A DNA stretch of 64,000 nt, from IMG/VR virus record IMGVR_UViG_3300033233_001970. One strand, 5' to 3'. The DNA comes from a virus (Duplodnaviria > Caudoviricetes). The first letter of the stretch is position 1. The number at the start of each line of letters is the position of its first letter. Shown piece by piece: positions 20,348-53,285 of this stretch. The position numbers and the translations under genes are program-made. The notes beneath the pieces are model-generated. The model had not been told where the DNA came from, searched no databases, and saw nothing but the letters and a program-made list of their open reading frames with translations.

Positions 20348-20857
20348 ATGAATACTCCGCACGGACTCGGCCAGGCGCCCCAACCTTCTGCTCCTACGCC
20401 CACATGGGTCTGGGTCTCGGTAGGCGCCGTTGTCCTTGCCGAAATTGGTGCAGCGATTTGGTTTTTCAACCAACCGAAATCAAATCCAGCTACTCCGCGC
20501 TCGAGCTATTGGGACATCTACGAGCTCAAGATCACGCCCGTCAACAAAAACACGAGCATCACGGATGCGATGGGAATCCCAATCCGTGTTCGGCACGGCG
20601 ACTGGATCATCCGTTCGCTTCTCGCGGTGCCCAACGAATACGATCCGCAAAAACCGCGCACGATCACCTCCAAGCTCGAGCGCATCGAGCACAGCAAAAA
20701 CACAGCGATGTACGAAGCGGGCAAGCTCGCCACCGCGTACGCGAACTTCAACATCCGCAACCCGAATCCGGCACGGGTGACCGACGAGAAAGGCAAATGC
20801 ATCTTCTCTGTTGTGGGCGACCCGAGCACCAACAGAGCGGTCGAAACCACGTGCTGA
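20348..20857 (+). CDS. TM + NPxTP module protein
   Basis: GLG leader, TM, SNPATP...RNPNPARVTDEKGKC. Confidence 0.75.
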   Translation: MNTPHGLGQAPQPSAPTPTWVWVSVGAVVLAEIGAAIWFFNQPKSNPATPRSSYWDIYELKITPVNKNTSITDAMGIPIRVRHGDWIIRSLLAVPNEYDPQKPRTITSKLERIEHSKNTAMYEAGKLATAYANFNIRNPNPARVTDEKGKCIFSVVGDPSTNRAVETTC

Positions 20858-20858
20858 G

Positions 20859-21158
20859 ATGACGATCAAGCTTTCCGTCGACGGGAAAGAAATCCCCATG
20901 AGCGCCGCCGCGAGCGCGGCGTACGGCACGCTCCCCAACTCGGAGAAGGCGATTGGTCAGCTTTTCGAGCTTCTCCGCGAATTCGATTTCGAAGAGGAAG
21001 ACCGCAAGGAGCTCAACGAGCAGATTCAATTGGTGATCGCGATCTTCGGTGGCGAAATGGCCGAATACATCGCGCGTCACCAGTGTGCTACATGCGCCGC
21101 CGAATCGGAACGCAAGCACAGGGAGTTTGTCGTGAAGGCGAGCGAGAAGTCGTCGTGA
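20859..21158 (+). CDS. hypothetical protein
   Basis: Coupled ORF. Confidence 0.6.
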   Translation: MTIKLSVDGKEIPMSAAASAAYGTLPNSEKAIGQLFELLREFDFEEEDRKELNEQIQLVIAIFGGEMAEYIARHQCATCAAESERKHREFVVKASEKSS

Positions 21159-21979
21159 ACGGCAAGCTTGTCGGATCCATCGGCGACATCGGCGTTCCGG
21201 AGGAAGCCGGCGGGCGCGTGTACGAAACTTCGCCAGGCCATTTCGAGCTCGAATGGATCGAACCGCCGCCCGATGATCGTCGTATGGAGCCTGGAACGTA
21301 CGATGCGCCGGACGGGCAATGGACGATCTATGGAGTGTTGCTCGATCCCGAGATCCCAGATTGGGGCGATTTGCGAGACGCAGCACGAAGCGTCGGCATG
21401 CCCTGGATGGAACTTGCGGACGCGTTCATGAGTACCGATCCTATCAAACGAGCATACGCTTACGAAACGTGGGCGAGTTACTACGGCTGGCACGAGCTCG
21501 ATTCGTATCCGACGCATCTCTACAGGAGCGAAGTCGAGAAACGGTTCAAGACCGAGCTCTACCCGTCGGCGAGCTGGATCAAGGTCAAATCGATGCCGTA
21601 CACGATGGGATCGGTACCCGTGATTGTGGCGGGGAAGACGCTCCTGTTCTCGTCTTTGCTCGTGACGCCTTCGGACGGCAGTACGCCTTTCAATCTCTTG
21701 GCACCTGCTGCCACGGCGGTAGACACGCATCTGTTCGAGATCGAAAACGAGAACGACAGTTATTACGTTCTCATCGTCGCTGATTTCGTATTTCTAGGAA
21801 AGTACGACAGCTACGATCCCGACGATCCGAGACCCGCAAAAGCCGATCGAGAGATCATGTTCGATGAGGAGCGGGACATACGGGGTGTATTCCCTGAAAT
21901 TGGTAATTCTGCGGATCTGTCACAAATCAACATCACTCATGAAGAAATGATCCGCCGCCTCTCGAAATGGCTGGACTGA
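21155..21979 (+). CDS. hypothetical protein; N-domain paralogous to 24005-24805
   Basis: Shared ELEWI..W..Y.V.LD.EIP.WG.L..AA.SVG...F.S.DP..RA.A.E..GW.E.D. Confidence 0.75.
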   Translation: MNGKLVGSIGDIGVPEEAGGRVYETSPGHFELEWIEPPPDDRRMEPGTYDAPDGQWTIYGVLLDPEIPDWGDLRDAARSVGMPWMELADAFMSTDPIKRAYAYETWASYYGWHELDSYPTHLYRSEVEKRFKTELYPSASWIKVKSMPYTMGSVPVIVAGKTLLFSSLLVTPSDGSTPFNLLAPAATAVDTHLFEIENENDSYYVLIVADFVFLGKYDSYDPDDPRPAKADREIMFDEERDIRGVFPEIGNSADLSQINITHEEMIRRLSKWLD

Positions 21980-21980
21980 A

Positions 21981-22259
21981 ATGATCACCGAAGAGCACAT
22001 CGAAAAACTGATCCACCGCGTGCTGGATATCTTCCCAGACGCAACGGGTGTAAGCGTCGCAAGGTTCATACTTCGTTTCGGACATAGCGATTCATGGGGC
22101 TGGGATTGCACCATCGACATTCCGCGACGTAGCAAAGGCAAACAAAAGCGACGGTTGCACGGAAATGAAGCCTTCCGAGGCAGCGGCGAAACACCAGAAG
22201 AAGCTGTCGAAAAAGCCATTCAGTTCGTGCAATGGGACAAAGCCGGCCTCCTCGATTGA
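21981..22259 (+). CDS. hypothetical protein
   Basis: Coupled ORF. Confidence 0.6.
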   Translation: MITEEHIEKLIHRVLDIFPDATGVSVARFILRFGHSDSWGWDCTIDIPRRSKGKQKRRLHGNEAFRGSGETPEEAVEKAIQFVQWDKAGLLD

Positions 22260-22268
22260 GACGAGAAC

Positions 22269-23327: not shown

Positions 23328-23328
23328 A

Positions 23329-26037: not shown

Positions 26038-27471
26038 ATGAAAATCCACAACGTCCGCCTCGGCCTCGCCACGAACTCGAGCTCGACCCACTCGATCATC
26101 TTCACGAAGAACCGCGTGAAGGACAAAGACGTCGAGGGGCGCGAATTCGGCTGGGATCTTTGGACTGCTGCCTCGAAAGAAGCGAAGCGGCAGTACGTCG
26201 CGATCCATCTCCTTCACGCCATTCGTGGCCAGGTCTCCAAGGACGTCGCCGATGCGGTGCTCGAGCAGTGGATCCCAGGCGTCGAGCGTCCGGTGAAGGA
26301 AGACGACGAATTCGCATGGGACGAACAGGTTCGCGGCTACGTCGATCATCAGTCGGAATACGTGCTCCCGCGTGCGTGGGACGGCGCGGGTGTCGACAAG
26401 GCGTTCTTCGAGGACTTCCGCGACTTCTTCCTTCGTGACGACGTCGTCATCCTCGGCGGCAACGACAACGACGACGAGACTCACGAGCTCGGTAAGGGTT
26501 TCGTGCTCCCCATCACACGGGACGGCGGCGCAGGCGATATGGTCGCGCGCAAAGACGAACAGGGCGGCTATTGGACGCTCTTCGATCGCAACGACGGTAC
26601 TAAGATTCGGTTCTCGTTCGACACGCCAACTTCGAGAAAAGAAGTCACAAAGGCGTCCGCGCCAGAGCTTGTCGACATCAAGATCACCGACTTCTGTCCC
26701 TACAACTGCGCGTTTTGCTACCAGGGCTCGACCGGCGGCGGCAAACACGCCGATGTCGGCATGTTCTACCGCATTGCAGAAACGCTCGGACAGCTCCGCG
26801 TCTTCGAAGTTGCCATCGGCGGCGGCGAACCGACGCTTCACCCGAAGTTTCTCCAGATTCTCGACGCATTCAAGAGCCGTGGCATCGTCGCGAATTTCAC
26901 GACGAAGAATCTCGCGTGGCTCCGCGATGCGATGGCGTGGCCGAAGATCATGGAAAAGATCGGCGCATTCGCGTTTTCGGTCGATGACGAAAAAGACGTC
27001 GAGCAGCTCGCCGCGCTTCTCGAGGTGAACGGCATCGACACAAGCCAAGCGTCCGTGCAGTACGTCATGGGCTCCACCGACGTCTACAAGATGGAGCGGA
27101 TTATCGAGAAAGCGGCCGACGCCCGTCTTCGCATCACGCTCCTCGGCTACAAGACGACAGGACGTGGTTCGAGCTTCAAGCCGCAGCCGTACAAGGACTG
27201 GGTCAAGCGCGTCAAGAAGCTCTACGAACAGAAGCACTATTTCACGCTCGGCATCGACACCGCACTCGCCAAGGAAAGTGGTGGCGAGCTCGCCGACGAA
27301 CGCATCCCGACCAAGCTCTACGCGACGGACGAAGGCAAGTTCTCGATGTACATCGATGCGGTCGACGGAAAAATCGCGGCGTCGTCCTACGTCGAGGACA
27401 TCGCGATGAAACGCGCGGATCTCCAGAATCTCACCAAAGAGAAGCTCGTCGCGGCGTTCGCGGAGTGGTGA
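26038..27471 (+). CDS. radical SAM protein with N-terminal TNSSS-motif domain
   Basis: CPYNCAFC cluster motif, IGGGEPTLHP; N-terminus MKIHNVRLGLATNSSSTHS. Confidence 0.9.
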   Translation: MKIHNVRLGLATNSSSTHSIIFTKNRVKDKDVEGREFGWDLWTAASKEAKRQYVAIHLLHAIRGQVSKDVADAVLEQWIPGVERPVKEDDEFAWDEQVRGYVDHQSEYVLPRAWDGAGVDKAFFEDFRDFFLRDDVVILGGNDNDDETHELGKGFVLPITRDGGAGDMVARKDEQGGYWTLFDRNDGTKIRFSFDTPTSRKEVTKASAPELVDIKITDFCPYNCAFCYQGSTGGGKHADVGMFYRIAETLGQLRVFEVAIGGGEPTLHPKFLQILDAFKSRGIVANFTTKNLAWLRDAMAWPKIMEKIGAFAFSVDDEKDVEQLAALLEVNGIDTSQASVQYVMGSTDVYKMERIIEKAADARLRITLLGYKTTGRGSSFKPQPYKDWVKRVKKLYEQKHYFTLGIDTALAKESGGELADERIPTKLYATDEGKFSMYIDAVDGKIAASSYVEDIAMKRADLQNLTKEKLVAAFAEW

Positions 27472-28087: not shown

Positions 28088-28422
28088 GGGTGCGATGATG
28101 ACTGGCAAAGAAGCGGTTCGGATCATCAACGACTCCCTGAGCCGGTCAGGACGAACGAAATTTCGAAGAGCTACACGATCTCGTGGGTACAAATGCTGTC
28201 GCGACCATCGACGCACTTCAGGCGCTCACGACAGCGATCGAATACGCCATGCTTCTGCGCATGTAATGGACTGCATGTGCCAGACGTGCGGACGCGAATT
28301 TCATCTCTTGGTTCGTGCGTCGGAGTACGCCTCCGAAGCCGAATCGAACGAAGCGCCTCGGCTCTGCCCGCGCTGTTGGAAAGCGCAGCCCAAACCACCT
28401 AACCGCCCTCCGTTCCACGAAA

Positions 28423-28896
28423 ATGACTGAACGCGATCCTGACCCGTACGTGATGTACATCGTCGTGCGTAGGAGCTTGAAGCTCTCCGCTGGCAAAGTC
28501 GGCGCGCAGTGTGGTCACGCCGTCCAGTACCTCATGCAAGAATTTTTGCCCGAGAGATGGCCCACCAGAGACGAGGCGAAGCTCCTGTCACGAAAGGTTG
28601 CCGGAACGCTTACCGACGAAGAACGCACCCGCTTCGAGGCGTTGGAAAAAGAGAAAGACGACCGATACGAACGTTGCGTTACGGCCGGCGAATGGCTTAA
28701 GGGCGATCACGCGAAAATCATCCTCGGCGCGAGCGACGACGAGTTCATGAAAGTGCAGCTCGAGAACGAGCACTTCTTCATGGTCGTCGACCTCGGGTAC
28801 ACCCAGGTTGCGCCTGACACTGAGACGTCGCTCGGCTTATGGCCGATGAGAAAAAGCGCAGCGTCGGAAACCGTCAAGACATTGAGACCGTTGTAA
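28423..28896 (+). CDS. peptidyl-tRNA hydrolase 2 (PTH2) family
   Basis: MYIVVRRSL..SAGKVGAQCGHA...KIIL...VVDLGYTQVAPDTETSLG. Confidence 0.88.
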   Translation: MTERDPDPYVMYIVVRRSLKLSAGKVGAQCGHAVQYLMQEFLPERWPTRDEAKLLSRKVAGTLTDEERTRFEALEKEKDDRYERCVTAGEWLKGDHAKIILGASDDEFMKVQLENEHFFMVVDLGYTQVAPDTETSLGLWPMRKSAASETVKTLRPL

Positions 28897-28950: not shown

Positions 28951-29157
28951 ATGAACGAACACATTCTGCAATTCTTCGTATGGGAACACCTTCCCGAACA
29001 TCTCGCTGAGGTGAGCAAGCCGTTCGGCGAGCTCGCGAACCAGATCGTCGCGACGCTGCCGCGCAATCAGGAGCGCACCGTGGCGCTTCGCAAGCTGCTT
29101 GAGGCGAAGGACGCGGCGGTTCGCGCAAAGCTCGCGAAGGAAGACGTCACGAAGTAA
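28951..29157 (+). CDS. small helical-hairpin phage protein, possibly Acb2/Tad1-like
   Basis: HLPEHLAEVSKPF...LPRNQERTVALRKLLEAKDAAVRA; GGAG RBS. Confidence 0.45.
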   Translation: MNEHILQFFVWEHLPEHLAEVSKPFGELANQIVATLPRNQERTVALRKLLEAKDAAVRAKLAKEDVTK

Positions 29158-29210
29158 CGGTTTTCGTTCCGCAACGTCAACGGCTTTCGTTGATGGTAGT
29201 ATCGGTGACG

Positions 29211-30311
29211 ATGCGTCGCCGTTCGAACCCTTACACGTCGCCGTGGACAGTGATCGAATACCGAATCACCCGTCGCCTGATCGACGGGATCGTGTATCTG
29301 GTTCTTCTCGAGCTCGTACAAGAGCCTGGCGAAAAACCGACGACTGCGGTGTACACGTGGCACGCTTCTAGAGCCGACCTCATAAAAACAGCAAAATTTA
29401 CCATACAAAACGCAGCGAGGCGCGAGAGAAACAGTCCGATTCCGGTTCGCTTGTTCGATGAGCGCGGCCAATGCCTCTACGCCGCGCGTAACAAGATGAT
29501 GCCGCCGAGCCACGACCCGAAATGGGGCTTGATCGGACAACGTCCTACGCCGTCGTGGGAAGAAATTCCGTGCGACGCGCGGCCAAACCCGCATGCCAGC
29601 AGGAAGCAGAACCCGATCTACTTCGACGATCTGCCGCTCGCGGAACGTCAGCGACACGCACAACTGTGGCGTGCGTCAATCGCGAAGCTTCGCGATCTGC
29701 CGTATCCGTTTCAGGCGACGTTCGACGGCGAGCGTATCACCGTGCTCGGTCGCGTACGGGATTTCGAACCCTACACAAGTCATCCATGCCAACAAGCTGA
29801 AGCTACCGACGAATCGATGATGGTTCGTGGATCGGATGGCAAGAAGTTCATCGTCTTCGGCCACAGCTTGTTCGTCGGCGACCAACGCCTCGTGTACCAG
29901 TCCGGCTACCGCCGCCGTCCTGTAGTTGATCCTTTGGGACTAGGATGGAAAGAAAACCCCGTCGGCGTCTTCATCTACGATCTCGACGCGCTCGACAAGC
30001 TCGCGGCGATGGAAGGCCAGGATTGGCTCAAAGACGATCGTCGTATGTGGGAACGGTACCGTAGCGGCAATACAGCGCACGCGTTCGTAACGGCGTGGAA
30101 GTTCACACGCCATCTCTCGCCGGAAGATTCGATCTATTGGAAAGACTATTTCGCGGGCGAGACAGGTGTGGAGCTCGGCGTCATCTACGGTAACGGCGGC
30201 TACGCGAGGTACGCCGTATCCAGCGAAGGTGAGATTCGGCTCGATCCAGGATCGACACGACCAGAGAAGGTAGCTCGAGCTCTCGGGCTAGGGTTTCGGG
30301 TGCCGCGATGA
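29211..30311 (+). CDS. modular NP-linked protein (NPYT module + 2 other domains)
   Basis: MRRRSNPYTSPW; linkers RPNP, KQNP, KENP. Confidence 0.8.
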   Translation: MRRRSNPYTSPWTVIEYRITRRLIDGIVYLVLLELVQEPGEKPTTAVYTWHASRADLIKTAKFTIQNAARRERNSPIPVRLFDERGQCLYAARNKMMPPSHDPKWGLIGQRPTPSWEEIPCDARPNPHASRKQNPIYFDDLPLAERQRHAQLWRASIAKLRDLPYPFQATFDGERITVLGRVRDFEPYTSHPCQQAEATDESMMVRGSDGKKFIVFGHSLFVGDQRLVYQSGYRRRPVVDPLGLGWKENPVGVFIYDLDALDKLAAMEGQDWLKDDRRMWERYRSGNTAHAFVTAWKFTRHLSPEDSIYWKDYFAGETGVELGVIYGNGGYARYAVSSEGEIRLDPGSTRPEKVARALGLGFRVPR

Positions 30312-31519
30312 AACGCAGTCAAGAATGTGCACGTATCCTCGCGAAGAACGCGGGCGCCGTCGAGTGCCGTCGCAACCGCATGAGCGGCACCATCATTACG
30401 CTCTACGACGGAATCGCGGCCGGCATCGAGTCGGATCCGGAGCTACGCTGGTGTACCGTCTGCGAAGATCACTCGACACTCACCTGCCACTCGTCGCTTT
30501 CGCTCGCGCGCCGTCACATGGCAGTGCCGGAATGGTGCGAGGAGTGTCAGGCGATCATGGAGTCGAGGAAATCGAATCCGTACACACCCTCATCAACCGA
30601 TGAACAATACTTTGATTACAAAGTCATCCACTACCCTGTGTATTCGAGCGCCGGTCTGCGCAAACAAGGCTGGCGAGTAGAGGCGGCTCAGTTTACACCC
30701 GGTCAGCAGCCACATTTCTACTGGCCTGACGATCAAGGATTCGAGTTCGAGAAGCATTTAGATGCGATCGATCATGCCAAGTGGCGTGCCCAAGGTGCCG
30801 CTATTGCCGGTGATCATGCGCGCGTACTCGACGAAGCTGGGCGTTGTGTGGTTGCGTACAAACATCAACCACCTGACAACGCTATCGAAGTGTCTTGCGG
30901 CGCCGTTCGATCGAACCCCTGCACGCCAGGCTGGCCCGTCTACGAATTTCGTGTTCGTCAACGCGGTTCCGATCGCTGGTGCATTCAACTCATGACGCAG
31001 CTTCCTGGGCAAGCTCCACGGTTCGAAGAGTTCGGGTGTGGTTCCCTCGGTTTCATGTCGACGAGGGACTGGGCCATTGCCGGCGCAGAACAAGAAGCGT
31101 GGGAGCATTCGCGAAGAGAAGCTTCCAACCCGAACGCGGTGCTCGTTCGCGATGAGCGTGGACGGTGCGTACACGCGTTCGTGGGTGGTGAGCGCGTGGA
31201 GTGTCCTTCGTACCGAGCCAATCCGTACACGCCAAGCTGGCCGCGTTACGAGCTCAAGGTCGAAGCAGCCGAGAGCTACATCGACCGTCACCAGAGTCGC
31301 CGCATCGTATACAAATGGAAAATCACGATGCTCACGTGGACGCCCGAGGGAAAACCGAAATTTCAAGAAATAGGTTTTTCTGGCGATCTCGGTAAAGCCG
31401 AGAGAATCGCCTTTGACTACGCGAACAAACTTCACAGCAAAGAACCGCGCAACCCGAACGACATTCGCGTTTTCAACAATGCAGGCAAGTGCATTTTCTC
31501 GATTCAAGGAGCTTGCTGA
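30308..31519 (+). CDS. modular protein with 3 tandem NPYTP modules
   Basis: SNPYTP / SNPCTP / ANPYTP, each ending in V.(D/N)..G(R/K)C. Confidence 0.85.
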   Translation: MKRSQECARILAKNAGAVECRRNRMSGTIITLYDGIAAGIESDPELRWCTVCEDHSTLTCHSSLSLARRHMAVPEWCEECQAIMESRKSNPYTPSSTDEQYFDYKVIHYPVYSSAGLRKQGWRVEAAQFTPGQQPHFYWPDDQGFEFEKHLDAIDHAKWRAQGAAIAGDHARVLDEAGRCVVAYKHQPPDNAIEVSCGAVRSNPCTPGWPVYEFRVRQRGSDRWCIQLMTQLPGQAPRFEEFGCGSLGFMSTRDWAIAGAEQEAWEHSRREASNPNAVLVRDERGRCVHAFVGGERVECPSYRANPYTPSWPRYELKVEAAESYIDRHQSRRIVYKWKITMLTWTPEGKPKFQEIGFSGDLGKAERIAFDYANKLHSKEPRNPNDIRVFNNAGKCIFSIQGAC

Positions 31520-31992: not shown

Positions 31993-32862
31993 GTGGCGTC
32001 AAAATTCAAATACGAACCATTTGTCCGTGTCGGCGCCATGTCGTCGGACGATGCACGCGATTTCGTGGTTCGTGAATTCGGAGTGGATCCTGCGCGGATC
32101 TATCTCATCAAGGACGGTGGCCCCGCCAATCCGGAACGCTACAAGCCTGGCGCAAGGGTATGGCACGTCTACATCGGCAAGAAACCCGTGGGCGGGCACC
32201 TGTACCGCGTGAAAGAGAACCCGCGTTACGAAAAAGGCTTCCCGATCGGCCATCATCAAATCATCGTGGACAAACTCGGCGTCGTCTACGACGGCCGCGA
32301 CGAGATCGAAGCGGGCGCCAAGTACGGCGAGTACATTGCGCTCTCGATGTCAGGCGACGGCTACCGCGTCATCTGGCTCGTTGATGGTGAGGTCGAGGAT
32401 CAGTACATTCCGGAGCTCGAGGAAGAGATCAAGCTCGCGTGGTGGGACGAACACATCAAGAAAAATCCGTACACGCCGCCGTCCTTGAAGTGGCCCGTCT
32501 ACGAGTACAAGATTTCACCCGCATGGGGCTACCGAGTCAAATCAGGAGATCCGGACGAGTGGCAAATCTGGGAGCTCGAAAAGCGCCCTGGAGAGCGCGC
32601 AAAAATACGAATCGTCGGCGGCGAGCAGCCGCGCTCCATCCATGGGAACCGAGAACCCTTGTGGAAGGTGAAACACAGAGCGATTGATCGAGCCATCGAT
32701 TTGGCCATTCGTCACGCGACGAACATGGATCCGCGAAATCCAAATCCCATCCGTATTCTCGACGAGAGCGGCCGATGTTACTCCGTCGTTCGGCCGGCGT
32801 ACCGTGGCGCCGCGACCATCGATGAGTGCGATCCTCCGGCACGACCAAACCCTTCGAAGTGA
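31993..32862 (+). CDS. modular NP-linked protein with C-terminal NPYTP module
   Basis: KENP and KKNPYTP linkers; RNPNPIRILDESGRC. Confidence 0.8.
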   Translation: MASKFKYEPFVRVGAMSSDDARDFVVREFGVDPARIYLIKDGGPANPERYKPGARVWHVYIGKKPVGGHLYRVKENPRYEKGFPIGHHQIIVDKLGVVYDGRDEIEAGAKYGEYIALSMSGDGYRVIWLVDGEVEDQYIPELEEEIKLAWWDEHIKKNPYTPPSLKWPVYEYKISPAWGYRVKSGDPDEWQIWELEKRPGERAKIRIVGGEQPRSIHGNREPLWKVKHRAIDRAIDLAIRHATNMDPRNPNPIRILDESGRCYSVVRPAYRGAATIDECDPPARPNPSK

Positions 32863-32871
32863 TTCTGTGTC

Positions 32872-34001
32872 ATGAGACCGAATCCCTACACGCCGCCGTC
32901 GCAGCTCTGGCCACGCTACGAGTTTCGACTGCGGCGGAGGTCGGAGCAAAACCGTGGCTCGTGGACGTCTGGCGCCTCGAGCGACGCTACGGCGAGCAAC
33001 CCAAGATGAAGCAGGTGAGTGTAGCGAATCGCGTGTACACGGTTGCCGTCGACGACGCCAATGATTGGGCGAAAATCCAATCGATGGCCGAGCCGAACAA
33101 TCCGAATCCGGTGCTCGTCATCGATATCCACGGAAGCTGCTACAGCGCGTTCATCAACGGCAAACGCACGCATTGCCCAGACGAGATGGTGCGGCGCAAC
33201 CCATACACATCCTCTTGGCCGATCTACGAGGTACGCATTCGCTACCACAAGCAACGAAATGCGTGGATTCCAGTCACCTACAAAAAGATGCCTGGTGAGA
33301 ATCCGAAGATCGAAGAAGATTTCATGGGGTATCACCAGCGCGGTCAGGCGCTCGAGGCGATCAAAAATTACGCGCACCTGCTCTCGAGACGCCCGTGGGA
33401 TCAATCGTGGGGATCGCCAAATGATCTGCGAAATCCAAATCCCGTTCGCGTCCTCGACGAGCATGGTCGCTGCGTCACGGCGTATCTTGCGGGCAAGGAG
33501 ATCGGCTGCCCGAACCCTGTTCCGCCCGAGCAAAGTAGTGGCATAAAATTGGGGCACATTCTTGCTGGTGGCGCCATTGCTGCGTTGGTATGGACGTTTC
33601 GGCAGAGCATCTTCGGATCGGACAATCCGTTGGCTCAGGTTGCCGGCCGCATTATCAGCCGCGACGCGCGCGCCGCTACGACCTACACGCGACTCGCTAC
33701 ACCCGAAATCGGCGGCGGCCTACACGGCGCCGGACGCTATCTCATCAGCGTAACGCCTTCAGGGTTCGAAACGCTGCGGTCGTACGCCGCAACCGTCCTC
33801 AGGAGCGACACGGGCGCTACCGTGATGGGTCCGTTCCAGGGATGGCGAGACGAAAACGACATGAACCACTTGTCCGAGTTTCAATCGGTGGGTGACGGAG
33901 ACGACGCCAGTCGCGCACGCATGACTGTCGTGCTCGGCATGCCGTACGGCTACGGCACGTTGCCGGACTCGATTGATCCGAAGGTTTGGCAGGTAAAGTA
34001 G
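32872..34001 (+). CDS. modular protein (2 NPYT modules + TM + C-domain) with a frameshift near 32950
   Basis: ATG 32872 gives MRPNPYTPPSQLWPRYEF; adding one A to AAAA at 32948-32951 joins it to the long ORF. Confidence 0.75.
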
Positions 34002-35300: not shown

Positions 35301-36701
35301 TCAGGCCAGATCGCGAAGGATCGCGCCGTTTTCGCAGCCCACGGCGTACCCAGAGCCGGTGGGCCCAAAGATCAAATCGCCTAGCGCGAAGCCGCCAAGC
35401 GCGACGGGCGTATCGAGGTTCGCGGCCGTGATCGCTCGTTGAGATGGCGCTGCCGCCTTGTTTCCCGTGGCTACATCGATCGCAAAAGCCATGTCGCCCG
35501 CGTTGATCGGCCCGTTGGCTTCGATGTGTAGCGACGCGAGCAAAAACGTCTGCACGGCCGTGCGGTTGTACTGCCAGAAGAGCTTCGTCTCCGGGTACAC
35601 GAAGATACGGTCGCCCCACAGAACCGGAGGTCCGTAGTCGCCGTTCTGCACGCGGTAGTTGCCGCCTTGGCCTAGCGCACGGAATCCAACAACGAAGAAA
35701 TTTTCGAGACAGGCCAAGCTGAACGCGGTGTCACTTTGCAGATTGTTCGCGCCTTGAAGAAGTACATCCCCATCGAGGAAGAATGTGCCGCCTACGAAAG
35801 ACAGTATAGCCCCGCCTTCGTAGAATGGGATCGTTGTACCTATGCCGGAGCCGAAACCGCCACCGGGAGCGAAACAATTGGCCGCCGATCCCGCAGCGCC
35901 TTCCGCAGCACGCGGAAGATAAAAGTTGGCGAATGAACAGAACGCCGTCCAACAGATGCCGATGAATTGTTCGGCGAATGCTGGATCCCCGTGAAACGCC
36001 GCGTCCACGAAGACGAGCGCGCCTCCGAGCCCATTGACGGCCTGCGCAAACGCCATGTTCAGGCGACCCGGACGAAGCACGCGGTAGGTGTTGGTCGCGA
36101 CGGGATCAACTTGGGTGTTCGCAAAGATCGCGAACGGGTTGATCGGAGTCGGGTTGACGTTCTGGACGAGCGAGCAAATGACAGCGGTCGTTCCGCCCGC
36201 GCTCGCGCGAATGAAGGACTGTGCCGACAGCGTCGTGTCCTCGAAGATAAGCCCGACGTTCGTGTTGATATTGGGGCCGCTCACTGTCTGACGTCCCGCA
36301 ACACCGGCTGCGCGATTTTTCGGCGTCGCCGCCGTCAACATCCCGGACGCGACCACCGCCATCGGCATCGTCCACACGAGTGAGAAGAGCGCCACATCGA
36401 TCACAATCTCGTCTGTCGTTCCCTGCCCAGGAAGCTCTTCACTCAGGAACGTGACGGACATGGGAACCTGAATCGAGCCGTTCTTGGCGCCGATGCGCCG
36501 CAGGAGCTCAGCTTTCGTCAAGAGCGGCATGAGCGCGGTCGCGCCCGTGTTGCTGTCATTGGCAAGGCCGGAGACGTTCTGCGGATCAACGAACCACACA
36601 GGTTGCGAAAGAAAAAACGATGTTCCTCCTGAGCCGACGCTTGACGGAATCGGGTAGGTGGTCGCGGCAAAACCGACACGCTGGCTTCCTCGAAGAGTCA
36701 T
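35301..36701 (-). CDS. fibre/spike-like protein, leader family 2
   Basis: MTLRGSQRVGFAATTYPIP; WFVDPQN..G.ANDSNTG; Gly/Ala-rich. Confidence 0.6.
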   Translation of the reverse strand: MTLRGSQRVGFAATTYPIPSSVGSGGTSFFLSQPVWFVDPQNVSGLANDSNTGATALMPLLTKAELLRRIGAKNGSIQVPMSVTFLSEELPGQGTTDEIVIDVALFSLVWTMPMAVVASGMLTAATPKNRAAGVAGRQTVSGPNINTNVGLIFEDTTLSAQSFIRASAGGTTAVICSLVQNVNPTPINPFAIFANTQVDPVATNTYRVLRPGRLNMAFAQAVNGLGGALVFVDAAFHGDPAFAEQFIGICWTAFCSFANFYLPRAAEGAAGSAANCFAPGGGFGSGIGTTIPFYEGGAILSFVGGTFFLDGDVLLQGANNLQSDTAFSLACLENFFVVGFRALGQGGNYRVQNGDYGPPVLWGDRIFVYPETKLFWQYNRTAVQTFLLASLHIEANGPINAGDMAFAIDVATGNKAAAPSQRAITAANLDTPVALGGFALGDLIFGPTGSGYAVGCENGAILRDLA

Positions 36702-39575: not shown

Positions 39576-41252
39576 TTAGTTCGCGATCATCCAGTCCACA
39601 TCGGCGCCGTTCGCGGCGTCTACGCCCGCGCCATTTAGCGCGGTGATCTTGAAACTGCCTGGGGTACCGATCACGCGATCGACGAAGAGTGCTGCGTAGC
39701 GTGTTGTCGCGGCAGCTCCGACGTCTGTTCGCTCGAAGCCAACGATCTTGCTGCTTGCCGTGATAATCGCAGAAATCGCAGGGGAAACACCTGCGACAAG
39801 CGTGGTAGTTCCTGCTTGAAGCGCAGGCGAGCCGCCACCGGGCCCATTCATACGATCCGTGGTTCCGTTGAGAAAAAGATTTGTATTAACCACAAGTCCG
39901 CCAGGGATTCCGGCTTGTGGCAGGTTCACGTTCGCGCCATCTGTTTGATTCACGCCGACGAAGCCGCCGCCGCTCTGCGCGAGCGAATTGATTCCGATGA
40001 CAGACGCATCGTAGGCGTTGATGACGGTGAACGCGCCGAGCGTGGTGGACGCGAATTGCGCGCCACCGCCACCGCTCGGGAAAATCTGCGAGGCGCGTAG
40101 CATGTCGATGACGGCGATCCCTGCTCCGCTCGACCGAATGAACGGAGCCGTGGCGCCAGCGCCGACGTTGCTCAAGCTCACGTTGTCGAAGATAAATGTG
40201 CGAATATCGATTACGTCGATCAGCGGAGTCGCGCCCGCACCAAACCAGTTGATACCGATGTCCGCGAACCCGATCGAAGCCGTGCCGGCGAACGTTACTC
40301 CGTTCGCGATCGAGAGCGTCGTGGTGATCCATCGATCGCCCTGAAAACGAACCGGATCCGCTCCGAGATTGTAGGCGCCTGGCGCGATCACGGGCGCGGC
40401 GCCTCGGAACTCGAAGGTGCGTGGTCCCTGAAACTGCGCCGCGAAGCCGACAGCCTGCGCGAACGTGTTGAATACATTTCCTCTCGGATCGAACACGGTC
40501 GAATCGATGACGATCGTGTTGACCGGCTTGCTCTCGGGGAAATAGTTGCCACCGGGTACGAGGCCGCCGACGATGCCTGGTTGCGTGAGGCTGATTGACG
40601 TGGACGGCGACGCGCTGTTGACGAAGAAGGTCACTCCGCTGAGAGCACCTGCGCCAATGAAGCTGTCACCGTACGCAAGCAACTGGATGAAGCCGAGCGC
40701 GTTATCGAACACGACGCCGCTCCCAAAACCGCCGGCTTGCGCAAGCTCGAACATGACGATTCCGATGAAGAACCCTGACGAGTTACGAATAAACGGCTGG
40801 CCCCCAAAAGTTGCTACGTTGCATGTCTCGAACGTGTAAAGGCTAAGCGGTTTGGCCGCGATACACGCTGTCGCAGTGCCGAGGTAGACGATTTGAAGAT
40901 CGAGCCCTCGCCAGAACCCGATCAACGTCGCGCCATCCGCGATCGTAGCTACAGTCCCGGCGTTCACTCCGAAAAACGTCACGTCTTCAATGGGACCGAA
41001 ATTCCAGACACCTGCCGGGATCACGCACGCCATAAACGTGTCATCGAATTCAACGATACGAGGCCCCTGAACGGCCGCAGCCGCCGCGACAAGCGCTGCC
41101 CAACTCGTGTAGACGTTTTTGAATGCTGCCCCGCCTGGACGAAATACAAACGTCGTCTGCTCGGCTGCTGCTGAAGATGCTGCGGAATTCGCTCGAGCTA
41201 TCGCGAGATCAATTTCCGGTCGGCGAATACTTTCGTCTCTGTGTCGGCGCAT
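39576..41252 (-). CDS. fibre/spike-like protein, leader family 1
   Basis: First ~100 aa closely match 12123-13280; internal duplication of the NV(Y/F).....QGPR domain. Confidence 0.65.
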   Translation of the reverse strand: MRRHRDESIRRPEIDLAIARANSAASSAAAEQTTFVFRPGGAAFKNVYTSWAALVAAAAAVQGPRIVEFDDTFMACVIPAGVWNFGPIEDVTFFGVNAGTVATIADGATLIGFWRGLDLQIVYLGTATACIAAKPLSLYTFETCNVATFGGQPFIRNSSGFFIGIVMFELAQAGGFGSGVVFDNALGFIQLLAYGDSFIGAGALSGVTFFVNSASPSTSISLTQPGIVGGLVPGGNYFPESKPVNTIVIDSTVFDPRGNVFNTFAQAVGFAAQFQGPRTFEFRGAAPVIAPGAYNLGADPVRFQGDRWITTTLSIANGVTFAGTASIGFADIGINWFGAGATPLIDVIDIRTFIFDNVSLSNVGAGATAPFIRSSGAGIAVIDMLRASQIFPSGGGGAQFASTTLGAFTVINAYDASVIGINSLAQSGGGFVGVNQTDGANVNLPQAGIPGGLVVNTNLFLNGTTDRMNGPGGGSPALQAGTTTLVAGVSPAISAIITASSKIVGFERTDVGAAATTRYAALFVDRVIGTPGSFKITALNGAGVDAANGADVDWMIAN

Positions 41253-45634: not shown

Positions 45635-45635
45635 G

Positions 45636-47067: not shown

Positions 47068-47082
47068 CCACGTGAGCAATCA

Positions 47083-48856: not shown

Positions 48857-48892
48857 ATTTCTTGCCGAACGATAAGATGGTATCGTGGCCTC

Positions 48893-49699: not shown

Positions 49700-49756
49700 G
49701 GAGCGTGGATAATCGAAAACGTAGACGAAGTCACGGACGACGCCTACGATTCACCC

Positions 49757-49978: not shown

Positions 49979-50035
49979 TTGGTGACGATTTCTTCACGTC
50001 AACGCAAATCGTTCACGTGCTAGAATCTGCAAACC

Positions 50036-50524
50036 ATGAACGAAGACGGCGACATCATGCAGTACATGGCTCCGTACATCAACGCGCTGAAGGGCATGAT
50101 GGGTACGAGCAGCACGTCGAACGTCGTGCTCGACGAACCTCGTGCATGGGATCAATACATCGGCCACGCGCTCGCGTTCCTTCGTGACAAAGAAAAGCCG
50201 ATGACCGATCCCGTCGTCTTCGCGGTCGAGATGGCCGATCGGATTCTCGCGGAACGCCGTAAGCGTTTTCAGCCCGAAGAGCTCAAGGCGCAGATCATGC
50301 CCGAAGAGGAAAATCCCATGGACAATCTCTGCGGCAAATCCATCAACGGTCGTTGGCGCTGCGTTCTCGCTCCGAATCACGAAGGCGATTGCAGACCCGT
50401 TACAGCGACCGCCACGACGACACCTGCGCCGCCACCCATTCACGACGGCCCCAAAGGCACGCTCGAGGCCCATACGGGCGTTACGCGCTTGCCTCCGCTG
50501 CCGTTCCCGCCACAGGATGCGTGA
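50036..50524 (+). CDS. hypothetical protein
   Basis: TGCTAGAAT upstream. Confidence 0.65.
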   Translation: MNEDGDIMQYMAPYINALKGMMGTSSTSNVVLDEPRAWDQYIGHALAFLRDKEKPMTDPVVFAVEMADRILAERRKRFQPEELKAQIMPEEENPMDNLCGKSINGRWRCVLAPNHEGDCRPVTATATTTPAPPPIHDGPKGTLEAHTGVTRLPPLPFPPQDA

Positions 50525-51186
50525 TGCGGAAGAACCCCGCGCAACGCGGCACGTGCGGTCAGTACAACTACCGAAACGTGCCTTTCACCGCGTACTACAC
50601 ACCTCTGAGGCACGTGTGGTGTTACGACATCCGCGCGGTTCGGGACGTGTACCCGCTCGCGGATGCGGGCGTTCTTCGGTGCGAATCGACGAGCTGCGCG
50701 GCAGCGGTTTTGAGCGCGCGCCTGCACATCGATCGACTCATTAGTACCATCGGCGGAAAGATCGTTGTCGGGGCTCATGTTTCGGTTCCATACGATTCTC
50801 TCTTCGTAGAGCTCCGAACCTCACACGGAGAAGAAGTCGCTGTCGGAAGCAAGAAAATCGCTGGCTCCATTGTCAAAGAAACGCCGAAATTCGTGGTTAT
50901 CGAATTTCGACCCAGTGGAGGAAAAAGGCTCGGACATCTTCTTTACGCCGTTGTCGATCGTAGGTATTTCGAACGACACGCAAAAGAGGAAGGACGCGCC
51001 GAGGTCGGAGAACCTTCACTCGAGAACCCTCTCCCGGACGTCGTTCGCGCGGGGATGCTCATACTCTCGATGGTCTTCGTCGGCACGGGCGTCTACTTCA
51101 TCGCCAAAGCCGTCGATCCTCTGATGCCGCAGCCCAAGGAACAGTATCCAATATTCGGGCAGGAGCCTCAGATTTACTACACGTGA
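50524..51186 (+). CDS. modular protein with MRKNP leader and C-terminal ENP-TM
   Basis: MRKNPAQ; LENPLP + TM. Confidence 0.7.
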   Translation: MRKNPAQRGTCGQYNYRNVPFTAYYTPLRHVWCYDIRAVRDVYPLADAGVLRCESTSCAAAVLSARLHIDRLISTIGGKIVVGAHVSVPYDSLFVELRTSHGEEVAVGSKKIAGSIVKETPKFVVIEFRPSGGKRLGHLLYAVVDRRYFERHAKEEGRAEVGEPSLENPLPDVVRAGMLILSMVFVGTGVYFIAKAVDPLMPQPKEQYPIFGQEPQIYYT

Positions 51187-51249
51187 TCGTCTTGCGTTCC
51201 GACAATGAAAAATGTTTCGGATCCGAAAAAACTCGGCTAAGATCTGTTC

Positions 51250-51723
51250 ATGCATCCCTACGCGCTCGCCAATCCTCGTCGTCGACGCTCTTCGCGCAAG
51301 GCCCGAGCCTCTGCTGGGTGCGCGAGCTGCGCTTCCGAGGGAATGGCATTTCGCGAAAATGTCTCTTGGAGCCCGCACGGCGTAGGCGGCTACAACACGC
51401 CGAATACCATCGAGCACCTCAAGAATCTCTCCAAGCCCGCGAAGATTGGAATCGCGGTTGGTGGCGGCGCCGTCGTTCTCGGACTCATCATCTGGCTCGT
51501 AACACGCGGCGACAAACCGAGCGACGTCGCATACAAGGGTGTCGCAATTCACCTCAAGCCGATTTTCATCGGCGGCGCATCGAAATGGTCGGCGGATTTC
51601 CAGTGGACGCCGCCTGGGCCTGGCGCGAAGACGAAGCAGATTTCGGCGATCGGAAGCTCGTCGGACGAGGCGCTCGATAACGCCAAACGTATGATCGATG
51701 ACTTCGTCAACGCGGTGACGTGA
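51250..51723 (+). CDS. membrane protein with YKGV module
   Basis: ANPRRRR; HGVGG; TM; EALDNAKRMID. Confidence 0.7.
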   Translation: MHPYALANPRRRRSSRKARASAGCASCASEGMAFRENVSWSPHGVGGYNTPNTIEHLKNLSKPAKIGIAVGGGAVVLGLIIWLVTRGDKPSDVAYKGVAIHLKPIFIGGASKWSADFQWTPPGPGAKTKQISAIGSSSDEALDNAKRMIDDFVNAVT

Positions 51724-53285
51724 TGCCCAAACGCCGCAAGAGCGGCGAACGGTCGAATCCGTATACGCCAACTAGCGATTCGTGGCCGAAGTACGAAGTC
51801 AGAGTCGCTCCATGCCATCTCAAGCACCATCTGATGTGGTGCGTGTACGGATGGACAAAACAGCCTGGTGAGCTCCCGAAGACGTTCAAAATAGGTGGCT
51901 ACGCCACGCAGCACGTTCTTTCGGAAGACGCGATTCGGGCAGCAAAACAATACGCGAAAGATTTTTCGACTGCAAATCCTCGCAATCCGAATCCAGCGCG
52001 AGTCCTTGATGAGCGCGGCCGATGCGTCAACGCGTTTCTCAATGGTAAGGCAATTGGCTGCGAAAATCCGCTGCCGCGCATCCCTCGTTGGCAAGAGATC
52101 CCGAAGAAAACCAAACTCATCGCCGCCGGTGCCGCCATTGCTGGCATTGGCGCCATCATCCTGTTCGCAAAATCACGTAAACAGCAAATTACGTCTTCAC
52201 GATTCGGTCGCGACGTCCTCGCTCGAGCCCAGCAAGACGTCGGCGTCACCGAAGTCGATGGCTCGGGCCGTGTCGAACGCATGCTGCTAACGTACGGCAT
52301 CACGTACCCCGTCAACTGGTGCGCGGTCGCCACCGGGACCTGGATCCACGAAGCGGCGCAAGACTTCAGTGTGAAGCCTCCGATTCAAGGATCACCTGGC
52401 GCCAAGGACACGATGCTTCAGTTCCAGAATGCGTCGAACAAAAAAGTCGACTGGATCGATGCGAATACGTTGCGGAGGTATCCCGAGCTCGTGCAGCCTG
52501 GCATGATCTCCGTTTGGCAGCGTGGCCCCGTCGCTTCCTACATGGGCCACATCGGCGTGGTCGAAGCCAATCTTGGGAGCGGAAGCTTCCAAACCATCGA
52601 AGGCAACGCCGGTCCTAGCGCGGGCGCGGTGGTTCGAGGTCGTCGCGAGCTCTCTGCCGACAATTTTCTTGGGATGGGTTACTTCAACGACGCCGAAGTC
52701 TTCAACCCCGAGCAGGCGGGCGTAGCCGGCGTGGGCTTGGGCGCTCCGCCAGACAAGCCCAAGAGCATCGGCTTCCCGACGTACGACACTTGGTGGCGGG
52801 CGATCGGTGGCCCGAGCGGCATGCCGTACGAGCCGACCGATTACGTCGTCACGTTCGACAATGGTTCGAGCGTCGAAACCGAAGTCGTGCGTACGCCGCA
52901 GCATCAGGCACGCGGACTCATGCATCGACAGAGCATGCCCGAAGATCGCGGGATGCTCTTCGTATACGCGACGTCTAGCAAGCGAAGCCTCTGGATGCGC
53001 AACACTTTCATCCCGCTCGACGGCGTCTTCATGGACGGACACGGCGTGGTCGTTGGCATCGTCGAAAATCTCGTTCCTCGAAGCGATGAAATTCGTGGCG
53101 TAGACAAGCCTGTGAAGTACATCCTCGAAACGAACGCGGGATGGGCGAAGAGACACGGCGTTCGCGTTGGAAGTCGTATGATGCCTGTACGTGTCGGCGT
53201 CGGCTTCACGCAAGATCCGCCGAACATCATGAAGTTTGAACCCGTATGCCCAGCTACAAACAACAGCATTGGTTTGCGTCACTAG
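51723..53285 (+). CDS. NPYTP module - TM - CHAP peptidoglycan hydrolase - DUF192 fusion
   Basis: NWCA...GHIGVVE...TIEGN (CHAP); GLMHRQSMPEDRGMLF...WMRNTFIPLD...ILETNAG (DUF192). Confidence 0.85.
   Translation: MPKRRKSGERSNPYTPTSDSWPKYEVRVAPCHLKHHLMWCVYGWTKQPGELPKTFKIGGYATQHVLSEDAIRAAKQYAKDFSTANPRNPNPARVLDERGRCVNAFLNGKAIGCENPLPRIPRWQEIPKKTKLIAAGAAIAGIGAIILFAKSRKQQITSSRFGRDVLARAQQDVGVTEVDGSGRVERMLLTYGITYPVNWCAVATGTWIHEAAQDFSVKPPIQGSPGAKDTMLQFQNASNKKVDWIDANTLRRYPELVQPGMISVWQRGPVASYMGHIGVVEANLGSGSFQTIEGNAGPSAGAVVRGRRELSADNFLGMGYFNDAEVFNPEQAGVAGVGLGAPPDKPKSIGFPTYDTWWRAIGGPSGMPYEPTDYVVTFDNGSSVETEVVRTPQHQARGLMHRQSMPEDRGMLFVYATSSKRSLWMRNTFIPLDGVFMDGHGVVVGIVENLVPRSDEIRGVDKPVKYILETNAGWAKRHGVRVGSRMMPVRVGVGFTQDPPNIMKFEPVCPATNNSIGLRH

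What the first reader, a model, noticed from the sequence alone, without database searches (positions are those of the whole stretch)
20480..52070. A ~100-aa 'NPYTP...WPxYE...NPNPxRVxDExGRC' module present 9 times in 6 genes
Seen: copies start near 20480, 29223, 30572, 30911, 31218, 32461, 32872, 33191 and 51753. Consensus: NPYTP-x-WPxYE(F/L/Y/V)(R/K)...W...PGExP...AIxxAxxxA...RNPNP(I/V/A)RVxDExGRC, usually with a second Cys downstream. The ends are conserved and the middle is highly variable. It occurs alone, in tandem, or fused to TM, CHAP or other domains. Seven copies cluster at 29.2-33.5 kb. Inference: an expanded, diversifying binding scaffold; the strand-helix-VxDxxG pattern recalls DUF2188, and the Cys pair may form a disulfide.
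Basis: partly seen in the sequence, partly recalled or inferred. Interest (0 to 1): 0.85.

Follow-up and report, generated by a model that had tools for sequence, protein, structure and literature searches.

The report
Orphan 100-residue phage domain, nine copies
A large sediment phage carries nine old copies of a roughly 100-residue protein domain that matched no family in the four libraries I searched. The domain often sits next to a membrane anchor and near cell-wall-degrading enzymes, so it is a real new domain family, but its function is still only inferred.

Summary
Nine copies of a ~100-aa module lie in six + strand genes at the stated places.

- **Independent check:** an HMM built only from 35 non-window relatives recovers all nine copies (i-E 5e-11 to 1e-27). 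Nothing else in the window scores better than E 0.1.
- **Copy 7 is broken:** its first ~25 codons are in another frame because of a 1-nt shift near 32944-32951. The shift is identical in a second assembly.
- **No known family:** the module matches nothing in Pfam, PHROGs, NCBIfam, PADLOC or by PDB sequence profile.
- **Rare family:** an exhaustive HMMER scan of 1.84 billion representatives gives only 45 hits. About 40 of them are outside this contig, all unnamed or named only 'hypothetical protein', on phage-like contigs.
- **Fold:** AlphaFold2 gives a confident fold (pLDDT 90) with topology β-β-β-α-β-β and a Cys pair bracketing the last hairpin. No fold search gives a strong match. DUF2188 is only a weak look-alike by shape.
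- **Age:** a tree shows the nine copies are old paralogs with orthologs in related phages, not a recently diversifying array.
- **Membrane link:** about 40% of family proteins have one transmembrane helix beside the module, and charge bias puts the module on the cytoplasmic side.
- **Gene links:** module genes recur beside a GDSL lipase and DUF192-type wall hydrolases. In this window the module is fused to one.

Best guess (about 0.35): a cytoplasmic, membrane-proximal adaptor domain for envelope- or lysis-related proteins.

Another first-stage read of this genome noted the same family (e1-5468584).

The parts
20477..20854 (+). Module copy 1 (P0001 aa 44-169). It is the C-terminal domain of the 169-aa gene 20348-20857, after a TM helix at 20405-20467.
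   Evidence: (i-E 3e-21 with the non-window HMM)
29217..29519 (+). Module copy 2 (P0002 aa 10-110). It is the N-terminal domain of gene 29190-30311. It is the most divergent copy and has no nearby second Cys. The ~260-aa C-terminal domain has no family.
   Evidence: (5e-16)
30566..30907 (+). Module copy 3 (P0003 aa 87-200). It is the first of three tandem modules in gene 30308-31519, after a Cys-rich (CxxC...CxxC) N-terminal ~85 aa.
   Evidence: 5e-11
30908..31213 (+). Module copy 4 (P0003 aa 201-302).
   Evidence: 8e-25
31214..31516 (+). Module copy 5 (P0003 aa 303-403). It has orthologs in P0011, P0015, P0016 and P0020.
   Evidence: 8e-25; clade 100/99
32455..32841 (+). Module copy 6 (P0004 aa 155-283). 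It is the C-terminal domain of gene 31993-32862. The N-terminal 155 aa is a separate shuffled domain that, by my reading of the sequences, resembles a stretch of P0027 and P0031.
   Evidence: 2e-25
32872..33188 (+). Module copy 7, split by a 1-nt frameshift. The N-terminal ~25 codons run from ATG 32872 in the frame of the upstream gene. The rest is in the frame of the called gene 32859-34001. The shift lies near 32944-32954.
   Evidence: identical in ERZ27248239; contig depth ~57, no indel; no downstream RNA structure; intact ortholog P0018
33192..33521 (+). Module copy 8 (P0005 aa 123-232). It is followed by a weakly hydrophobic possible TM at 33546-33599 and a 150-aa C-terminal domain. Its ortholog is P0038.
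   Evidence: 5e-25; 96/88
51747..52079 (+). Module copy 9 (P0006 aa 10-120). It forms the N-terminus of gene 51720-53285. This copy was modelled with AlphaFold2.
   Evidence: 1e-27
52116..52169 (+). Gly/Ala-rich single TM (signal-anchor-like) of P0006, between the module and the wall-hydrolase part.
52437..53180 (+). CHAP peptidoglycan-hydrolase domain (aa 240-296) and DUF192 domain (aa 386-487) of P0006.
   Evidence: (CHAP 2.3e-6; DUF192 4.1e-30)
19424..20314 (+). TM-anchored GDSL/SGNH hydrolase gene immediately upstream of the copy-1 gene. The pairing is conserved in related phage contigs.

Best explanation
**What it is (shown).**
- Order of elements: a conserved N-terminal NP(Y/W)TP...WPxYE lead-in, then strands b1, b2 and b3, a helix with an Ala face, the loop PRNPNP, and a final b-hairpin VRVLDxxGxC.
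- The hairpin is closed by a second Cys 8 to 31 residues later.
- The domain occurs only in a rare lineage of large phages from sediment and similar metagenomes.
- It exists there as a set of old paralogs, nine in this window, that are shuffled between proteins.

**How it most likely works (inferred).**
- It is a non-enzymatic, mostly basic protein-binding or adaptor domain on the cytoplasmic face of the host membrane.
- It is carried by single-pass membrane proteins whose other end acts in the envelope. In this window that is the signal-anchored CHAP-DUF192 wall hydrolase. In several phages it is the gene that follows the membrane-anchored GDSL lipase.
- It is also carried by soluble proteins with one to three modules.
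- The modules would tether, gather or hold back these envelope or lysis proteins. One example would be keeping the Gly/Ala-rich anchor of the hydrolase in the membrane until lysis.
- The variable loops would give each paralog its own partner.
For: - The family is real.
- It has no Pfam, PHROG, NCBIfam, PADLOC or PDB-sequence match.

**Fold.**
- The model is confident: pLDDT 90, pTM 0.80, topology b-b-b-a-b-b.
- The same topology appears in all three tandem modules, with no fixed mutual packing (pTM 0.44).
- I saw no catalytic-looking conserved set. The conserved residues are mostly Pro, Asn, Gly, Ala, aromatics and two Cys.

**Membrane association and side.**
- 18 of 44 family proteins have one TM helix next to the module.
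- Lys/Arg bias puts the module side inside in 14 cases against 2, with 2 ties (binomial p 0.004).
- Modules are basic: median pI 8.6, and 29 of 44 are above 8.
- In P0006 the CHAP domain must be periplasmic, so the module lies on the other side of the membrane.
- By inspection of the sequences, the parts after the TM in P0014, P0029 and P0040 are Pro- or Ser/Thr-rich, as periplasmic linkers often are.

**Links to envelope enzymes.**
- A GDSL lipase gene lies directly upstream of a TM+module gene in the window, L002 and L038. In L005 one small gene lies between.
- DUF192-bearing hydrolases lie near module-TM genes in L009, L034 and the P0029 contig, and are fused to the module in this window.

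**Age.** The paralogs are old and have orthologs in other phages, so each is kept for its own role.
Against: - No direct functional data exist.
- The co-conserved Cys pair with variable spacing (38 of 44 modules) looks like a disulfide staple. A disulfide would fit an oxidising compartment better than the cytoplasm.
- Two relatives (P0026, P0028) have N-termini that look like cleavable Sec signals. That would put their module outside the cell (inspection).
- The Lys/Arg count is a crude topology predictor.
- More than half of the family proteins have no TM at all.
- The GDSL and DUF192 links are neighbourhoods on a handful of related contigs, not independent lineages.
- The basic charge, together with fusion to a phage zinc-finger domain and DUF3846 in P0027, would fit nucleic-acid binding equally well.
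Confidence: 0.35

Rival explanations
1. The module is a virion or ejection-protein module. It would be a packaging or assembly tag on proteins that are loaded into the particle and delivered to the host envelope. The CHAP protein would then be a virion-associated wall hydrolase with a membrane-inserting helix. The Asn-Pro junctions would be maturation cleavage sites, and the Cys pair would oxidise outside the cell.
For: - Paralogous families of small domains processed at short motifs are typical of the inner proteins of large phages (general knowledge of phiKZ and T4, not tested here).
- Asn-Pro is about 4.5 times over-represented in family proteins. It marks module starts, TM starts and protein N-termini.
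- The Cys pair fits an extracellular state.
- Tail-fibre-like paralogs lie next to the cluster at 35.3-41.3 kb (reading of N-terminal repeats only).
Against: - I searched only ten large ORFs against PHROGs and found no capsid, portal or protease gene beside the cluster.
- The DUF192 hydrolase of relative L009 has a plain N-terminal Gly/Ala-rich anchor like signal-anchored endolysins.
- Its catalytic domain is swapped (GH25 versus CHAP), as is usual for endolysins.
- No cleavage has been shown.
Confidence: 0.2
2. The module is a distant, elaborated relative of the small DUF2188/DUF6894-type domains seen in conflict systems. It would bind a nucleic acid or a small ligand rather than a protein, and the phage would use it in anti-defence or regulation.
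For: - DUF2188 clusters appear in two Atlas structure searches, with TM 0.65-0.68 by row.
- DUF6894 gives weak hits in 4 of 44 members (E from 0.027) and on whole P0003 (E 0.013), over the helix plus hairpin.
- The best PDB row is the anti-CRISPR AcrIF5 (Z 5.2, rmsd 3.2 over 68 residues).
- The modules are basic.
- P0027 fuses the module to DUF3846 and a phage zinc finger.
- A preprint, citing Burroughs & Aravind 2020, describes DUF2188 as uncharacterised but linked to defence (bioRxiv 10.1101/2022.04.27.489752).
Against: - No member hits the DUF2188 model at E up to 10.
- hhalign gives 33% probability over 22 columns.
- All fold scores are in the range the tools describe as common arrangements.
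- PADLOC finds nothing.
Confidence: 0.15
3. The module is an extracytoplasmic, disulfide-stapled binding scaffold, in the periplasm or on the surface. It would recognise host envelope components.
For: - The Cys pair is kept across hairpins of different length.
- P0026 and P0028 have Sec-signal-like N-termini.
- Loop-length variation is concentrated between b1/b2 and b3/helix.
Against: - Charge bias is 14:2 for a cytoplasmic module.
- In P0006 the module and the CHAP domain are on opposite sides of the single TM.
- The soluble multi-module proteins (P0003, P0004, P0002) have no signal peptide (inspection).
- The paralogs are old and conserved rather than fast-changing.
Confidence: 0.12
4. The module is a degenerate RNase H-like nuclease core (b-b-b-a-b) that acts on nucleic acid.
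For: - Foldseek and VIA rows are dominated by RNase H-like folds: UvrC C-terminal half, EndoV, RNase HI, Argonaute PIWI and the Pelota/aRF1 central domain.
- A conserved Glu lies at the start of b1 and a conserved Asp after b4.
Against: - E-values are 0.04 or worse, TM is 0.3-0.4 and Z is 5 or less.
- The second half of the RNase H fold is absent.
- There is no conserved acidic residue on the helix.
- Several members replace the Glu or Asp.
Confidence: 0.04

Closest known systems
DUF2188 (Pfam PF09954, YdaT-like small proteins)
   Same: - Small domain with a b-hairpin containing Trp, then a helix with an Ala-rich face, then a final hairpin with an Asp/Gly turn.
- Listed in both Atlas structure searches.
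- Its function is also unknown.
   Different: - No sequence or profile relationship was detected.
- The module is about 40 residues longer and has the NPYTP...WPxYE lead-in, the PGExP turn and the PRNPNP loop.
- It also has a Cys-closed terminal hairpin.
- It occurs in tandem and beside TM helices.
DUF6894 (Pfam PF21834)
   Same: The helix followed by a 'V-x-D-x-x-G-R' hairpin gives weak hmmscan hits: E 0.013 on P0003 and 4 of 44 modules at E 0.027 or worse.
   Different: - All hits are below the gathering score of 24.1 bits.
- They cover only the C-terminal half of the module.
RNase H-like fold cores (UvrC C-terminal half 2nrt, EndoV 5aoy, RNase HI, Pelota central domain)
   Same: They share the b-b-b-a-b order of the first five elements.
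   Different: - Scores are weak (E 0.04 or worse; Z 5 or less).
- No catalytic residues are present.
- The fold ends in a hairpin instead of the second alpha/beta half.
AcrIF5 anti-CRISPR (PDB 7eqg chain J)
   Same: Best VIA-align row: Z 5.2, rmsd 3.2 Å, 68 of 77 residues aligned, in a small phage alpha/beta protein.
   Different: - Sequence identity is 12%.
- The Z score is within the range the tool calls common.
- There is no shared motif or context.
Signal-anchor-release (SAR) endolysins such as P1 Lyz and phage 21 R (from my own knowledge, not tested)
   Same: P0006 and the L009 hydrolase P0052 have a Gly/Ala-rich single TM ahead of a wall-hydrolase domain.
   Different: - Classical SAR endolysins have only a few residues before the anchor.
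- P0006 has a folded 120-residue module there, which would not pass the membrane.

Membership tests
DUF2188 (PF09954) | Match to the Pfam model above its gathering score (22 bits) | tested here: not met
   None of the 44 modules hits PF09954 even at E up to 10. The six whole proteins give no hit either.
DUF2188 (PF09954) | Profile-profile similarity over most of the domain | tested here: not met
   hhalign of A3 against an 11-sequence DUF2188 alignment (A5) gives probability 33% over 22 columns, the helix only. The DUF2188 alignment had low diversity, so this test is not very sensitive.
DUF2188 (PF09954) | Same fold | tested here: inconclusive
   TM is 0.48-0.49 by the query and 0.65-0.68 by the DUF2188 model over about 65 residues, in two searches. 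Both sides are predicted models, and the domains are short.
DUF6894 (PF21834) | Match above the gathering score (24.1 bits) | tested here: not met
   The best hit is 16.1 bits, E 0.013, on P0003 aa 140-181. Four of 44 modules hit at E 0.027 or worse.
RNase H-like superfamily | Five-stranded mixed sheet with helices after b3 and b4, and conserved acidic catalytic residues | tested here: inconclusive
   Only the first b-b-b-a-b part is present. Foldseek gives E 0.04 or worse and TM 0.3-0.4. No conserved acidic triad is seen in the alignment.
New family (NPYTP/RNPNP module) | Copies significantly related to each other and to sequences from elsewhere | tested here: met
   The non-window HMM finds all nine copies at 5e-11 to 1e-27. 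The exhaustive search gives 45 proteins at E 1e-3 or better and 27 at 1e-10 or better.
New family (NPYTP/RNPNP module) | Independent folding unit | tested here: met
   The single module has pLDDT 90 and pTM 0.80. Each of the three tandem modules in P0003 folds alike. Stand-alone members exist: P0015 (103 aa) and P0038 (101 aa).
SAR / signal-anchored endolysin (for P0006) | Wall-hydrolase domain preceded by a weakly hydrophobic Gly/Ala-rich TM. Membrane release has to be shown experimentally. | not testable with these tools
   The architecture is seen. Release cannot be tested in silico.

The most novel reading that the evidence does not exclude
The module is one unit of a lineage-wide 'Asn-Pro punctuation' system. 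Proteins of these phages would be assemblies of small domains and TM helices that each begin at x-N-P. The N-P bonds would be processing sites, either self-cleaving through Asn cyclisation (as at the NPTH site of FlhB/EscU or Asn42-Pro43 of reovirus mu1, both recalled from knowledge) or cut by a dedicated protease. The nine modules would then be released or re-sorted as separate Cys-stapled units.
Probability: 0.07. Interest if true: 0.8.

Novelty: new variant of a known kind. Interest (0 to 1): 0.45.

Why it matters
- Huge phages are full of unassigned genes. This finding turns six 'hypothetical' genes, and about 40 elsewhere, into one definable domain family with a confident fold model, clear boundaries, orthologous groups and recurring neighbours (lipase, DUF192 wall hydrolases, single TM helices).
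- If the module is a cytoplasmic latch or adaptor for membrane-anchored lysis enzymes, it would be a way of controlling signal-anchored endolysins that I have not seen described.
- If instead the Cys pair is a true disulfide and the Asn-Pro junctions are cut, it points to an undescribed protein-processing scheme.
- Either way the family gives a concrete, small and expressible target for structure and binding studies.
- As it stands, it is one more orphan phage domain, so the interest is moderate.

Tried and rejected
- **Word-indexed search of 5.8 billion proteins**, near and longer lengths: only the contig's own proteins.
- **IMG/VR:** a protein query and a degenerate DNA motif both found nothing.
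- **Cultured phages:** blastn and tblastn found no relative of the module. Only the DUF192 part and a small upstream gene matched.
- **GTDB genomes:** the motif scan gave 14 hits, about the number I estimated from the pattern's information content. All were motif-only. One is a 'NPNPI..D..GH' stretch that I read as PAS-like, in an HD-GYP-like protein. No real module was found in the species genomes searched.
- **Homodimer prediction of the module:** no verdict.
- **RNA runs:** no RNA holder is listed. The only run found is a DNA sediment metagenome and is probably the source.
- **Reads laid on the frameshift:** contigs only. They give no extra information beyond no indel at depth ~57.
- **Programmed -1 frameshift for copy 7:** I found no X XXY YYZ slippery site, and there is no unusual downstream structure (z +0.56).
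- **dN/dS for positive selection:** not attempted, because paralogs and orthologs are 21-57% identical and synonymous sites would be saturated.
- **Whole-genome search for further copies:** impossible, because no genome is held.
- **Literature:** searches for the motifs found nothing relevant.


Full report

Translations of the + strand ORFs and a motif scan of all six frames show the N-terminal motif NP(Y/C/A)T(P/S) at nine places. These are 20483, 29226, 30575, 30914, 31220, 32464, 32881, 33198 and 51756. Each is followed about 80-100 codons later by ...NPNPxRVxDxxGxC.

The nine stretches align at 21-50% identity. Because an HMM trained on the copies would find them by construction, I built a second HMM from the 35 modules that come from other samples. 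That HMM finds all nine window copies with independent E-values of 5e-11 to 1e-27. The next best of 1224 six-frame ORFs in the window scores E 0.1.

**2. One copy is broken.**

- The N-terminal ~25 codons of copy 7 (MRPNPYTPPSQLWPRYEFRLRRRSEQ) run from ATG 32872. This is the frame of the upstream gene, just after its TGA stop.
- The rest (KPWLVDVWRLERRYGEQPKMK...NPNPVLVIDIHGSC) is in the -1 frame. That is the frame of the called 380-aa gene starting at GTG 32859.
- The shift lies near GAGCAAAACCG (32944-32954).
- The same sequence is present in an independent ENA assembly and in a Logan contig at word depth ~57.
- I found no canonical slippery heptamer by eye, and there is no unusual RNA structure downstream (z +0.56).
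- A +1 (four-base) reading would land in the wrong frame.
- The closest relative of this copy, P0018, is intact.
- I therefore read it as a real 1-nt lesion or an N-terminally truncated module, not as recoding.

**3. How rare is the family?**

- Pfam, PHROGs, NCBIfam and PADLOC give nothing for the module. A PDB sequence-profile search also gives nothing.
- The only known domains found in the six window proteins are CHAP and DUF192 in P0006.
- The word-indexed search of 5.8 billion proteins returns only the contig's own proteins.
- The exhaustive HMMER search of 1.84 billion cluster representatives returns 45 proteins at E 1e-3 or better, and 27 at 1e-10 or better.
- Of the ten I looked up, all are in clusters of one or two sequences, unnamed or named only 'hypothetical protein'.
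- IMG/VR and cultured-phage collections have none.
- A motif scan of 185,579 species genomes gives only chance-level, motif-only hits.
- A scan of JGI metagenome contigs finds about nine contigs with true modules.

The source is a sediment metagenome and a 246-kb contig. Related contigs share many other genes with the window at 40-85% identity. They also carry phage-type genes such as a GH25-DUF192 endolysin, an RNA ligase, NUDIX, an N6-methyltransferase and an Acb2/Tad1-like gene. The family is therefore confined, as far as these searches can see, to one rare lineage of large phages. Relatives carry two or more copies per 20 kb.

**4. Fold.**

AlphaFold2 on the 44-row alignment gives pLDDT 90 and pTM 0.80 for P0006 aa 10-120. 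The elements are:
- a less ordered lead-in holding NPYTP;
- strands 15-25, 28-38 and 45-52;
- a helix at 60-76;
- strand 84-87;
- a turn, then strand 93-98 and a short strand at 101-102.

Cys93 and Cys105 flank the last hairpin. The three tandem modules of P0003 each adopt the same topology, with no confident mutual packing (pTM 0.44).

Fold searches give no convincing relative:
- Foldseek against PDB: best E 0.04, bits of RNase H-like folds.
- VIA-align against 48,161 chains: best Z 5.2 (AcrIF5), then Z 5.0 and below, within the range the tool itself calls common.
- BFVD: best E 0.01.
- ESM Atlas: TM about 0.5 with several small families, among them DUF2188.

The result was 33% probability over 22 columns, the helix only. 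The module resembles DUF2188 in outline but cannot be filed there.

**5. Conservation and evolution.**

- Positions conserved in at least 80% of 44 modules are P5, W13, A62, A66, A70, N80, P81, N82, R85, V86, D88, G91, C93 and C105. Length variation sits between b1/b2 and between b3 and the helix.
- The Cys pair occurs in 38 of 44 modules, at spacings of 8, 12, 16-19 or 28-31.
- In the maximum-likelihood tree no two window copies are sisters; the label needs nine changes.
- Five copies pair with metagenomic orthologs: copy 7 with P0018 (100/90), copy 8 with P0038 (96/88), copy 5 within a 100/99 clade, copy 1 with P0017 (93/75) and copy 6 with P0013 (86/70).
- The expansion therefore predates the split of these phages. 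The copies are stably kept, which argues for separate roles rather than ongoing diversification.
- The module is also shuffled. For example, the C-terminal domain of P0002 occurs at 74% identity in L005 in a protein without a module.

**6. Context and likely location.**

- Eighteen of 44 family proteins have one TM helix beside the module. A nineteenth, P0005, has a weaker one.
- Lys/Arg counts put the module on the positive (cytoplasmic) side in 14 cases, on the other side in 2, with 2 ties (p 0.004).
- The modules are basic, with median pI 8.6.
- In P0006 the module and the CHAP-DUF192 part lie on opposite sides of a Gly/Ala-rich TM. A wall hydrolase must act in the periplasm, so the module should be cytoplasmic.
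- The related hydrolase in L009 (GH25-DUF192) has the same kind of anchor but no module.
- A membrane-anchored GDSL lipase gene is followed by a TM+module gene in the window, L002 and L038. In L005 one small gene lies between.
- DUF192 hydrolases lie near module-TM genes in L009, L034 and the P0029 contig.

Against a cytoplasmic location stand the disulfide-like Cys pair and the Sec-signal-like N-termini of P0026 and P0028. I could not resolve this conflict.

**7. Explanation.**

The best-supported reading has two parts.
- **Shown:** this is a new, non-enzymatic alpha/beta domain family of a rare large-phage lineage.
- **Inferred:** it is used as a cytoplasmic, membrane-proximal adaptor on proteins that act on the envelope, including a signal-anchored wall hydrolase, and in soluble multi-module proteins that could bridge them.

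I give this mechanism about 0.35. The rivals are:
- a virion or ejection-protein tag with cleavage at Asn-Pro (0.2);
- a DUF2188-like nucleic-acid or ligand binder in conflict functions (0.15);
- an extracytoplasmic disulfide-stapled binder (0.12);
- a decayed RNase H-like nuclease (0.04).

The homodimer prediction gave no verdict and is not used as evidence.

**8. A wider signal.**

Asn-Pro is strongly over-represented in the family proteins. There are 159 occurrences against 35 ± 5.4 in shuffles. Outside the modules there are 54 against 13.9 expected. Asn-Pro marks module starts, the residues just before TM helices, and protein N-termini. In 23 window genes the Asn of Asn-Pro is AAT in 32 of 50 cases, against 60 of 197 elsewhere (p 2.9e-5). 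So the module's NP start is not specific to the module.

**9. Novelty and score.**

Its function is not established, and orphan domain families are common in huge phages. I rate it a new variant of a known kind (a lineage-specific paralogous phage domain) with interest 0.45.

Noticed in passing
window 13695-64000 and family proteins P0001-P0049: The Asn-Pro dipeptide is about 4.5 times over-represented: 159 observed against 35 ± 5.4 in shuffles, and 54 against 13.9 expected outside the modules. It sits at module starts, just before TM helices (for example ENPLPK..., NPISRNAE...) and at protein N-termini (MRRNP...). In 23 window genes the Asn codon before Pro is AAT in 64% of cases, against 30% elsewhere (p 2.9e-5).
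   Followed up: partly
window 32860-32954: The N-terminal fragment of broken copy 7 is in the same frame as the upstream gene 31993-32862, separated from it only by one TGA and three codons. The two genes may once have been a single multi-module gene.
   Followed up: partly
window 28951-29157: A 68-aa gene just upstream of the cluster has 75-82% nucleotide identity, over about 100 nt, to hypothetical genes of unrelated cultured phages (Mesorhizobium, Microcystis, Mycobacterium, Myxococcus Mx4). That is unusually wide DNA-level conservation. It has no Pfam hit.
   Followed up: partly
window 50353-51723: Two small genes with single TM helices lie directly upstream of the module-TM-CHAP-DUF192 gene. 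This resembles a lysis cassette with holin-like proteins. They have no family hits.
   Followed up: no
window 12123-13280, 37033-39381, 39576-41252 (- strand); 35301-36701 (- strand); 61031-62605 (+ strand): Two further paralog sets share conserved N-termini: MRHRDESIRRPEIDLAIARAN... and MT(L/I/T)R...(V/H)(G/A)FAA..YP.P.... They look like interchangeable fibre or receptor-binding proteins on a common anchor. One has a weak match to PHROG 5596.
   Followed up: no
L006 2112-2342: A 76-aa gene in a related contig encodes a mini-module that keeps NPYTP, b1-b3 and the Cys-closed hairpin but lacks the helix and the PRNPNP loop.
   Followed up: no
L011 2615-3988 (Armatimonadetes MAG): The motif 'INPNPISVFDSQGHC', together with a second copy 'NPSPVIDLDESGH', occurs in what I read as PAS-like repeats of an HD-GYP-like protein. 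The module's terminal hairpin motif therefore also occurs in an unrelated bacterial protein, where I read it as the first hairpin of a PAS-like domain.
   Followed up: no
window 26038-27471 and 28315-28896: A radical SAM enzyme (477 aa) and a PTH2-type peptidyl-tRNA hydrolase lie just upstream of the module cluster.
   Followed up: no
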